Program-made: the position numbers and the translations under genes
Assembly: GCA_001938485.1 (NCBI GenBank)
Contig: MQRK01219561.1
Span: 1 to 64,000 of the forward strand
Origin: Girardia tigrina
Lineage: Eukaryota
Direction of reading: 5' to 3'
DNA length: 64,000 nucleotides
Shown here: in pieces, positions 39,901 to 42,900 of the stretch
How the letters are laid out: every line of letters begins with the position of its first letter
How positions within the stretch are numbered: position 1 is the stretch's first letter
Notes under the pieces: model-generated
Told to the model about the DNA's origin: nothing
What the model saw: only the letters and a program-made list of their open reading frames with translations
Database searches by the model: none

Positions 39901-42900
39901 CCGTTTGCATTAATTGCCATTGATTCGAAATCCTTCAGCACTTCAATATAGCATTCGTTGTACGAAACCATCGTTCTATTGAGTTCTTCAGTTGATATTT
40001 CCGCATGTCCGAGCTTGCTTCTTAATTGTAATAATTTATCTTTTGAACTCCTCTGGCAAAGTATTTTTCTATCTAATTCATCTTTCTCCATTTCCATTCC
40101 TCCTTTCATGCTAAGCAGAATATGAAGTGTAGCGTTCTTAGCTATATCACTCTCTTTTATTGTTTTTTGATCTCTTAAAACTTTCCCAGTCAACCATAAT
40201 TTTTGCAGGGTACTAGGAGTTCCTTCCTTGTTTTCAATTTTTTATTGTTTCCAGGGGGTCTTCATTAACAGCAATAGTTTTGCCAGATCCAGTTTTTATG
40301 AAAATTTGAAAATCTTGAATTTTCTATAACTCTCCTGGGTTCAGTTTTTTGACAAGTGTTAAAAAGAATTGTTGTTCTCCTCCATAAATGATAGTCCATG
40401 TCCAAATGAAATGTTCCTCCCCCTCACATGATCCCTTCGTTGGGTCCCGATATACGTATCGGCATCAAATCCTCCTGGTATCACGATGTATCCGGTGGCG
40501 TTAATTGTTTCAGCTGAAGTGTCTTCAATATCATTTTTAATTTTAATGATTTTTTTATTTTCAATTAATAAATCAGATTCAATCGTGCAATCACGATTGA
40601 TAATCGTTCCGTGATTAACAAGAATTTACCTTTTCGGGAATAATTCAACTTGCAACTGTAAATCGATAAGTTGAGCAAATGAAATGTGACATTGGCATCT
40701 ATACGGTTGCATTATTCGTAATTCATGTTTCATTTCATTCGTAATTATGTGGGGGCCCATTTAACCAAAACCAAGTTCTGCTACCAAAATAGTTAGCCAA
40801 TTTTAAATTTTGAATCGACGCGAAAAGAGCTTCATTGTCATTATCATTTAAATACAGTTTTTTAGCTTTAACTCTATTTAAGATATAATCGTATTTTGGA
40901 GAAGTTATTCCAAAAAAAGCCAAACGTTCACCGTAATAATTAATATAATACTGAACAGAATTCCACCAGTTTTTAGGTTTATTTAAGTTATTTAAATCGA
41001 TAATTCCGTTGCTGCAGTGAACAATAGACGTTTCTATAACATCCATCTTTTTTAAAATTCAATTGTTTTCAAATTTTTGCAATTATCAATCAAATACCCA
41101 AAATTCAATTCTTTTTTTCAAAATTTTTATTTTATTCAATTTACATATAATTACAATTGATGCAGTTAAAGATGCAGTAAAGATATTAATTAATAGTCAT
41201 AAATTAATTCATAAATAATCACAAAATAATTATAAAAAAATAAAAAATAGTCATTAATTAACAAAAAATTACATTGATAATCGTAAAACAACGACATGAA
41301 AACATAATATCCAAAACTACTTGAAAATCATTAAATCATAAGATGTCATTTGTAAATGCCTACATGGAATTTCTAATCAGAAACGGGAATTATAAATTAT
41401 AAGCACATACAAATTAGCAAAACATACCATTCAAAATTAATTAATATTTATTAATTATTATTTGCCACCTGTTTTCGATTAAAAATTTAATCTGAAACAA
41501 AGTCATTAACAAAAATAAATGTAATTTTGAAGTGACGAGTTTTGCTTGTTACCGTTTCCTTATAAAATAATTTACAAAATTCAATAACAAAAAACAAATA
41601 TTTACTTTTTTTACCAACCATTTTTTCTAATTAATCCATTTTATAAGAAAAATAAGTCACGATTGAAATAAAATAGGTTAACTTACTCTCGACGAGAAGA
41701 TTATAAATATTTATTTAAGTAATTTCTGTTTTTTGTTCACATTTTCAATTTTAATACTTGTGCATAATTCAAATCAACATCATACGATTATGACGTCAAA
41801 TGTTGATCTCGATTTTGTCAACATCTTTGACCCAAGCAACGGTGGTCAGTGCGGATATTGCAGGAACTGCTGACAAGAAGTGCTCGTACGGAATGCCATG
41901 TAAAAACATGAAACCCAACACTAACAATCATCTGAAAGCGACTGACGCGGATGCGGTACGTATTTCTACAAGTCGTACAATGACTTGACCTATTGTTCGT
42001 TCTACACGATTCGCTGTGACACCGAAAATTCCAATTATCGATTTCCAAATCGAATGTTTTAAAGATTTTACGGTGATTTCTTTCAATCGGTAAAGAAAAA
42101 AGGACAGGAAAATCGTCGGGAAAAGAAACCATTAATAAATGCCAGTTATAATAACAAAATTCCGCGGGAAAATCACTAAAAATTACGAAAAACCTAAAAA
42201 AACCACGGGACATCTTACAAACTAAATGAAATCGATATTATTCCTTTGCATTTGTAAGGATAAGAATAAACGCGTATACATATATTTAAATAGTATATTT
42301 TTATTATTTTTTATTAATACAATCCAATAAAAGTAATTTCATCAATATCTTTTTTTATTGGGGGAACTACTTTTATTACAATAAGGTTTTTAGTATAATT
42401 TTAAAATGTTTTTTAAAAAATACATTACAAAAGGCTTTTTGTTTGGGGGCAATACGGACGAAGAACCGTTTGACTATATAGCATAGAAATTATTATTTGT
42501 CAAAACAGAAAACAATTCTAAGATTCTCTACATTAGCTCTGATTATGTATTTGATGGACAAAAACCACCTTATAGTGAAGAAGACACTCCAAATCCAATA
42601 AATGAATATGGAAAATCAAAATTTCAATCAGAGCAATTGGTTCTTCAATCAAATCCTAGTAAGAATTGCATCAGTAATTAGACATTAATCAAATTTAATT
42701 CATTAATTACAGAAAATATTATACTTCGATTACCTATTCTATATGGAAATGTGGAATACATCGAAGAAACTGCAGTGACGATTCTTTTGAAAAGTGTGAG
42801 TGATCTGTTTAATCAATTATTTAGAAGTTTTTTTTGTAATTCTGGATTTTGATTTAATACAATTTGAATTATAAAAGAAATAACTTTTCAGAGGAATTGT

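What the first reader, a model, noticed from the sequence alone, without database searches (positions are those of the whole stretch)
40441..42250. Divergent gene pair (CRMP/DPYS-like and ATE1) with shared promoter, probably a second TG…CA insert
Seen: two decayed 5' gene ends point away from each other across about 740 bp, inside MAT2B intron 2. Candidate boundaries are ttcgt|TGGGTC…TTTGCA|tttgt (4/5 TSD, mismatch at a CpG). The rejoined site on the minus strand reads tatccttacgaagggatc, loosely like the BEL/Pao PBS tggtccttcgaaccggatc, just upstream of the BEL Gag. Inference: a head-to-head pair cannot derive from one mRNA, so the captured substrate was DNA.
Basis: partly seen in the sequence, partly recalled or inferred. 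Interest (0 to 1): 0.7.

Follow-up and report, generated by a model that had tools for sequence, protein, structure and literature searches.

The report
Host gene cluster pasted into retrotransposon
A decayed 1.8-kb copy of three neighbouring host genes sits inside a dead retrotransposon, next to a second host-gene insert with clean integrase-type ends, hinting that integrases may paste ordinary chromosomal DNA around this animal genome.

Summary
The stretch is a decayed copy of host DNA inside a broken BEL/Pao element in MAT2B intron 2. It carries three genes, not two. A FAM177-like ORF (40735-41046, minus) lies between the DPYS/CRMP 5' piece and the ATE1 5' piece. The ~740-bp divergent spacer is FAM177-ATE1; DPYS follows FAM177 in tandem.

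The proposed ends read as stated, but TG…CA with a 4/5 duplication is common by chance here (P 0.10-0.98). They become unusual only together with the PBS-like flanks (joint P about 0.001), and that motif is recalled, not verified.

The neighbouring insert (37337-39464) is better supported: TG…CA, a perfect 5-bp duplication, and no RT residues missing around it. Neither insert has terminal inverted repeats, shared ends or a paired LTR. A database protein follows the same FAM177 DNA through different frameshifts, so a second copy exists.

Best reading (0.45): a host-DNA cargo unit with bare TG…CA ends, inserted by an LTR-type integrase. "Not from one spliced mRNA" holds; "therefore DNA" is likely but unproven. 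No genome was held, so parents and copy number are untested.

The parts
40441..42250 (.). Insert 2: 1,810-bp copy of host DNA, candidate TG…CA ends, no terminal inverted repeat
40436..40440 (+). Left copy of candidate 5-bp target duplication (TTCGT)
   Evidence: 4/5 match, not significant alone
42251..42255 (+). Right copy of candidate target duplication (TTTGT); overlaps a GTAAG donor-like word at 42254, the only one on the plus strand of 40441-42508
40449..40625 (-). DPYS/CRMP-like N-terminal ~59 codons; stop just upstream; cut off after the GG-x-D motif
   Evidence: PDB dihydropyrimidinase E 1.5e-10, CRMP5 2.8e-7
40656..40704 (-). Candidate retained 49-nt GT-AG intron in the DPYS 5' end (possible ATG at 40733); predicted only
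   Evidence: 1 of 5 such candidates on this strand, 2.9 expected by chance
40735..41046 (-).
   Evidence: PF14774 E 5.1e-5, just under the curated cut-off; 50/62 identical to P0001
41047..41789 (.). AT-rich divergent spacer between FAM177 and ATE1 start codons (bidirectional promoter inferred, not shown)
   Evidence: GC 0.17-0.23; coordinates
41790..42136 (+). ATE1 5' pseudo-fragment, no intron, 3 frameshifts and a stop; 42137-42250 is probably ATE1 linker but cannot be assigned
40430..40440 (-). Downstream half of the PBS-like site and start of BEL leader
42251..42262 (-). Upstream half of the PBS-like site
40107..40311 (-). Ubiquitin-like domain, broken by a frameshift, in frame with the gag-like coiled-coil region
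   Evidence: PF00240 E 4.2e-10; start position
39470..40106 (-). BEL gag-like start (motif recalled; no Pfam hit), large internal deletion near 39690, first part of RT
   Evidence: RT 33/52 identical by eye to S. mediterranea BEL family NC-63
37337..39464 (-). Insert 1: 2,128 bp, TG…CA, perfect GCATC duplication; holds an unassigned gene piece (from 39402) and an HR1-repeat (PKN-like) 5' end (from 38215)
   Evidence: P 0.009; HR1 E 4.8e-6, below cut-off; no PDB hit
37130..37331 (-). Second part of BEL RT, cut off by a decayed transposase-like ORF
   Evidence: about 31/65 identical by eye to NC-63; HTH hits
33922..34282 (+). MAT2B exons 1-2 (intron 1 34108-34164)
42509..42796 (+). MAT2B exons 3-4 (intron 3 42659-42712)

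Best explanation
A 1.8-kb piece of a gene-dense host locus (ATE1 5' end, the ATE1/FAM177 divergent spacer, FAM177, DPYS/CRMP 5' end) was copied at the DNA level. An LTR-retroelement-type DDE integrase then inserted it, joining CA-3' ends to a target cut 5 bp apart. It landed in the primer-binding site of a BEL/Pao copy in MAT2B intron 2, as insert 1 landed in the RT of the same copy. The unit has no terminal repeats beyond TG…CA, so its ends are either cryptic sites in host DNA or the minimal ends of a non-autonomous cargo family. It has since decayed and is probably inert. SHOWN: gene identities and order, decay, position, absence of TIRs and shared ends, clean insertion of insert 1, a second copy of the FAM177 DNA. 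INFERRED: exact ends of insert 2, DNA rather than RNA substrate, the enzyme, inertness.
For: Three genes in two orientations with intergenic DNA. DPYS match stops 8 nt inside the left end. Joint TG…CA, 4/5 TSD and PBS-like flanks: P 0.0007-0.0017 in 3,000 shuffles, and 0.0012 with GTAAG held fixed; best of 10 candidate pairs, 20 against 8-14. A PBS is expected just upstream of gag; the BEL/Pao element Achilles has a tRNA-Tyr PBS behind its 5' LTR (PMC4580426 passages). Insert 1 has a perfect 5-bp TSD (P 0.009), and by eye its RT flanks keep the 8-residue spacing of NC-63. Template-switch retrocopies instead replaced internal sequence in all Drosophila cases (PMC5131818 passages). LTR integrases give 3-6-bp TSDs (PMC10045372 passages). 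P0001 follows three window frames in order.
Against: The TSD is imperfect and not significant alone. The PBS motif comes from the finding and from recall; I could not find it in print or in the readable supplements of PMC3118150, whose nucleotide file was not held. The motif was also named after the site was seen. The match needs indels and lacks the TGG start. GTAAG at 42254 could be an ATE1 intron donor. No 5' LTR is established upstream of the PBS. The two inserts share no terminal sequence, which is hard for one integrase with specific ends. No parent locus or DNA of a second copy was seen.
Confidence: 0.45

Rival explanations
1. The ends are right, but the insert is a solo LTR of a family whose LTR is mostly captured host DNA, taken up through read-through RNA or template switching and left behind by LTR-LTR recombination.
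For: TG…CA with a 5-bp TSD and no TIR is the usual solo-LTR signature (established knowledge). LTRs of 1.9-6.5 kb exist in Ogre, and planarians have giant LTR elements (PMC6431247 passages). Foreign sequence entered an LTR in BARE-2. A second copy exists.
Against: DPYS coding homology runs to within 8 nt of the terminus, leaving almost no room for an attachment site. Two unrelated host-made LTRs would be needed in one element.
Confidence: 0.2
2. Templated insertion during break repair, or a segmental duplication. TG…CA and the 4/5 match are chance, and the true ends lie elsewhere, for instance in an ATE1 intron starting at 42254.
For: TSD P 0.10-0.98. Donor-like GTAAG at 42254. [quoted passage not shown] Planarian genomes rearrange often near retroelements (PMC11410931 passages).
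Against: Joint P stays about 0.001 with GTAAG fixed. Repair does not predict TG…CA, yet insert 1 has it with a perfect TSD. No significant ATE1 homology beyond 42250, in a weak test.
Confidence: 0.2
3. LTR-mediated retroposition: the BEL reverse transcriptase switched onto a cellular RNA spanning FAM177 and DPYS, starting antisense in ATE1, and switched back.
For: Known in animals, including a BEL-flanked case and multi-gene chimeras. Two of three genes here, and both gene pieces of insert 1, are in the BEL sense.
Against: Published cases replace element sequence and are not clean insertions; insert 1 loses none. An insertion splitting the PBS should block priming (inference). It needs an unspliced RNA crossing a divergent promoter.
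Confidence: 0.1
4. Assembly chimera in a repeat-rich, gapped scaffold.
For: The window has 9 N gaps; no reads were laid across the junctions.
Against: The gene pieces are decayed rather than intact, no gap lies within 36 kb-44.9 kb, and insert 1 shows a biological TSD.
Confidence: 0.05

Closest known systems
Solo LTRs / nested insertions of BEL/Pao or Gypsy elements
   Same: TG…CA ends, 5-bp duplication, no TIR, nested in another retroelement
   Different: Content is host genes almost to the terminal base; no LTR family, internal region or shared ends found
LTR-mediated retroposition (Tan et al. 2016, PMC5131818; passages read)
   Same: Partial host genes, sometimes several, inside an LTR element in an animal
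   Different: There: mRNA-derived, microsimilarity at junctions, element sequence replaced. Here: intergenic DNA, opposite strands, and for insert 1 a clean insertion with TSD
Pack-TIRs / Pack-MULEs (Tan et al. 2021, PMC8277862; passages read)
   Same: DNA-level capture of genomic fragments, single or multiple copies
   Different: No terminal inverted repeats here; cargo about 2 kb against a median of 224 bp
Ginger1, Ginger2/TDD and IS481EU transposons (PMC2836005, PMC10045372; passages read)
   Same: Integrase-like cut-and-paste enzymes with TG…CA ends; TDD-4/5 give 5-bp TSDs
   Different: They have TIRs (40-270 bp in Ginger) and TGT-type ends; insert 2 starts TGG and TGC and has no TIR
S. 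mediterranea BEL family NC-63 (PMC3118150 supplements)
   Same: RT pieces of the host element about 50-63% identical by eye
   Different: This copy is internally deleted and broken, and has an N-terminal ubiquitin-like domain; gag of NC-63 was not seen

Membership tests
Solo LTR | TG…CA termini | tested here: met
   the ends were chosen for this feature
Solo LTR | 4-6-bp target duplication | tested here: inconclusive
   4/5, chance level alone; perfect for insert 1
Solo LTR | Same sequence occurs as paired LTRs of full-length elements | not testable with these tools
   no genome held; no copy elsewhere in the window
Pack-TIR / Pack-MULE | Terminal inverted repeats of a DNA transposon | tested here: not met
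   end-to-end local scores 13 and 10 for 80-nt termini
Pack-TIR / Pack-MULE | Captured host genomic DNA with a parent elsewhere | tested here: inconclusive
   cargo shown; parent not found
Ginger1/Ginger2/TDD | TGTNR termini and 40-270-bp TIRs | tested here: not met
   ends TGGGT and TGCAA, no TIR (definition)
LTR-mediated retrocopy | Part of the element replaced, microsimilarity at junctions | tested here: inconclusive
   not met for insert 1; unknown for insert 2 without parent and intact leader
LTR-mediated retrocopy | Derived from processed mRNA (introns lost, one strand) | tested here: not met
   genes on both strands with a 743-bp spacer; intron loss itself untested
Helitron capture | TC…CTRR ends, 3' hairpin, no TSD (recalled) | tested here: not met
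   ends are TG…CA; termini fold no better than shuffles, z -0.07 to 0.99; other end positions not searched
BEL/Pao (host element) | BEL-type RT | tested here: met
   motif found in the NC-63 RT consensus, by-eye comparison; no Pfam RT hit
BEL/Pao (host element) | Paired LTRs with PBS and PPT | tested here: inconclusive
   candidate pair passed a tuned test and failed an untuned scan; PBS motif recalled

The most novel reading that the evidence does not exclude
In this genome an LTR-type integrase repeatedly takes ~2-kb pieces of ordinary chromosomal DNA, bounded only by cryptic TG…CA dinucleotides, and inserts them with 5-bp duplications: a route to gene-fragment and promoter duplication with neither TIRs nor LTRs. 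Two independent examples would lie 1 kb apart.
Probability: 0.2. Interest if true: 0.75.

Novelty: new variant of a known kind. Interest (0 to 1): 0.4.

Why it matters
Capture of host genes by mobile elements is well known, but the described animal routes use TIR-bounded DNA transposons or template switching onto mRNA. Host DNA with bare integrase-type ends fits neither. If it proves a recurring class, it is a further way to duplicate promoters and gene 5' ends, in a group (probably planarian, inferred from the closest BEL family) known for unexplained genome shuffling. It is testable by computation alone in any whole assembly. The locus itself is decayed, and no function is suggested.

Tried and rejected
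No whole genome held. Self-BLAST found no second copy of 36350-43300 in the window.

Native parents: ATE1, 0 of 4 candidates scored; DPYS, 0 of 39. Both searched longer proteins only, so the blanks are weak.

Related loci: FAM177 in metagenomes, 0 of 259 pattern hits confirmed. Ubiquitin-gag ORF in viral contigs, 0 of 7. ATE1 in metagenomes, 5 of 131 confirmed; all are distant (30-48%) and none has FAM177 or DPYS nearby, so they say nothing on synteny.

Sequencing runs: 23 listed, two DNA-like runs of one study hold 0.68 and 0.57 of the words of 33850-43290 and may be the source; no RNA holder listed. No reads or contigs were laid, so junction support, copy number, empty site and expression remain open.

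Apparent ATE1 match at 42412-42462, beyond the right end: rejected, P 0.11.

Decayed LTR pair 34382-34611 / 42253-42484: P 0.001 with ends I chose, but not in the top 12 of 1,156 tiles with untuned ends, and no matching TSD. Not used.

Retained introns: 5 minus-strand and 1 plus-strand candidates against 2.9 and 1.6 expected; not evidence.

No Rfam match above cut-off in 36300-43290; no tRNA in 36000-64000. Atlas: only ubiquitin-like leads at 0.85 or lower, no usable hit for FAM177. P0003 is a repeat protein and was ignored. Earlier findings: none returned.

Literature searches for TIR-less, integrase-type host-DNA inserts or ubiquitin-gag BEL elements gave no matching paper. The library is open-access only and the terms were narrow, so this does not show novelty.

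Full report
SETTING. The window is AT-rich, repeat-dense animal DNA with short introns. No whole genome is held. The finding lies in intron 2 of MAT2B (34283-42508; PDB E 1.2e-13; junctions). The intron holds a broken BEL/Pao element on the minus strand. Its RT pieces resemble Schmidtea mediterranea family NC-63, 33 of 52 and about 31 of 65 residues by eye (PMC3118150 supplement passages). A planarian host is therefore likely; this is inference.

GENE CONTENT. The minus-strand piece at 40449-40625 is a dihydropyrimidinase/CRMP N-terminus (best of 65 PDB sequences E 1.5e-10). The match stops at residue 57 of 64, 8 nt inside the proposed left end. The plus-strand piece from 41790 is an ATE1 N-terminus (E 4.8e-9, 36% to P0002, best of 5 hits; PF04376 E 0.027). 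A frameshift-aware alignment covers 41805-42136 with three frameshifts, a stop and no intron. Its ATG is 744 bp from that of ATE1. The divergent pair is thus FAM177/ATE1, with DPYS in tandem behind FAM177.

A SECOND COPY. The only hit of the FAM177 search (1 of 1 candidates) is P0001, from a 1,109-nt contig, 50 of 62 identical. It follows three different window frames in order, from 41093 to about 40806, and keeps one residue the window lacks. It is the same DNA with other indels. It may be another decayed copy, the same insertion in a related population, or the parent read with errors; its DNA could not be fetched.

THE ENDS. The letters are as reported. Taken alone they are weak: 10 TG…CA pairs with at least 4/5 duplication fit the widest allowed windows, and shuffles give at least one in 98%, 26% or 10% of cases as the windows narrow. 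The joint test gives P 0.0007-0.0017. The letters at 42254 also form the only GTAAG in the region, a possible ATE1 donor; fixing it in the shuffles leaves P at 0.0012. The caveats are real. The motif is recalled: I did not find it in print or in the readable supplements, and the nucleotide file that would hold it was not available. It was named after the site was seen. A tRNA-Tyr PBS is reported for the BEL/Pao element Achilles (passages), without the letters. I put the ends at about 65% likely.

DOES HOMOLOGY RUN PAST THE ENDS? No native parent protein was found. Against distant ATE1 proteins, neither 42137-42250 nor 42251-42508 scores above shuffles (P 0.11-0.82).

THE FIRST INSERT. 37337-39464 has TG…CA ends and a perfect GCATC duplication, the only candidate in 31-nt windows fixed by the RT motifs (P 0.009). 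The RT motifs on its two sides keep the spacing of NC-63, so no RT residues are missing (by eye). It carries an unassigned gene piece and an HR1-repeat 5' end. This makes a second event of the same kind, 1 kb away, more credible. The two inserts share no terminal or internal similarity, and neither has inverted repeats or unusual terminal folds.

MECHANISM. TG…CA with a 5-bp duplication points to strand transfer by an LTR-type integrase (established knowledge; TSD lengths in PMC10045372 passages). Ginger and IS481EU transposons use such enzymes but have TIRs. Pack-TIRs need TIRs and mostly arise by gap filling. Template-switch retrocopies replaced element sequence in every Drosophila case. I favour a DNA-derived cargo unit with bare TG…CA ends (0.45), over a solo LTR made of captured DNA (0.2), repair or duplication with chance ends (0.2), template switching (0.1) and misassembly (0.05). 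Opposite strands and a spacer exclude the genes' spliced mRNAs, but not read-through RNA. A 49-nt candidate intron in the DPYS 5' end would favour DNA, but such candidates are not above chance.

RESULTS AGAINST. A candidate LTR pair for the host BEL passed with tuned ends and failed untuned, so no 5' LTR anchors the PBS. No reads were laid over the junctions. Distant ATE1 loci show no FAM177 or DPYS neighbours (0 of 5), which is uninformative at 30-48% identity.

PAPERS. Passages only: PMC13317346, PMC4580426, PMC554778, PMC5131818, PMC8277862, PMC2836005, PMC10045372, PMC6431247, PMC11410931. Passages plus supplement searches: PMC3118150 (S1 cut, S5 unreadable; S1 bears on the PBS claim). Searches returned no paper on TIR-less integrase-type host-DNA inserts, in an open-access library with narrow terms.

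VERDICT. Real captured host DNA, mis-described in gene content, with ends probable but unproven. It is a new variant of known gene-fragment capture; interest 0.4. The bold reading, integrase acting on cryptic TG…CA sites in chromosomal DNA, has probability about 0.2 and would merit 0.75. One BLAST against a whole assembly would decide most of it.

Noticed in passing
window 40107-40311 (-): Ubiquitin-like domain in frame with the BEL gag-like region. Planarian Burro (Gypsy) polyproteins carry a Ubi2/SUMO-like motif; no BEL case was found in one narrow search. It could also be a further captured piece.
   Followed up: partly
window 37337-39464: Insert 1 is the stronger case: perfect TSD, two tandem host gene pieces, and an unexplained GC-rich ~80-nt end at 37337-37415 that may be a vehicle terminus.
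   Followed up: partly
window 38580-39402 (-): Decayed Ser/Lys/Asn-rich gene piece in insert 1, no convincing Pfam family.
   Followed up: partly
window 40626-40735 (-): Only about 110 nt separate the FAM177 stop from DPYS homology, with a strong TTTACAG acceptor: possible operon-like, trans-spliced arrangement (inference from recalled flatworm biology).
   Followed up: no
window 34382-34611 and 42253-42484: Weakly similar AT-rich stretches bracket the intron cargo, the left one beside a PPT-like purine run; possible very old LTR pair, failed an untuned test.
   Followed up: yes
window 34283-42508: MAT2B intron 2 is 8.2 kb while introns 1 and 3 are 57 and 54 nt; it also holds transposase-like pieces (about 36340-37120 and 34900-35300) and a C2H2-like fragment near 34620-34720, seen in translation only.
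   Followed up: no
window about 1200-2500 (+), 7500-16500 (-), 26900-28200 (-), 61700-63800 (-): Broken Gypsy-like pol pieces, with cysteine-rich glycoprotein-like (env-like) frames in the first two; seen in translation only, names recalled.
   Followed up: no
window about 44100-44900 (-): Decayed mariner-type transposase (PF01359 E 3.6e-21, PF17906) in a later MAT2B intron, beside TA repeats and a gap.
   Followed up: no
window 19056-20309 and 22487-23900: Long near-identical inverted repeats (762 nt at 99%, 460 nt at 96%): a young TIR or foldback element, or an assembly feature.
   Followed up: no
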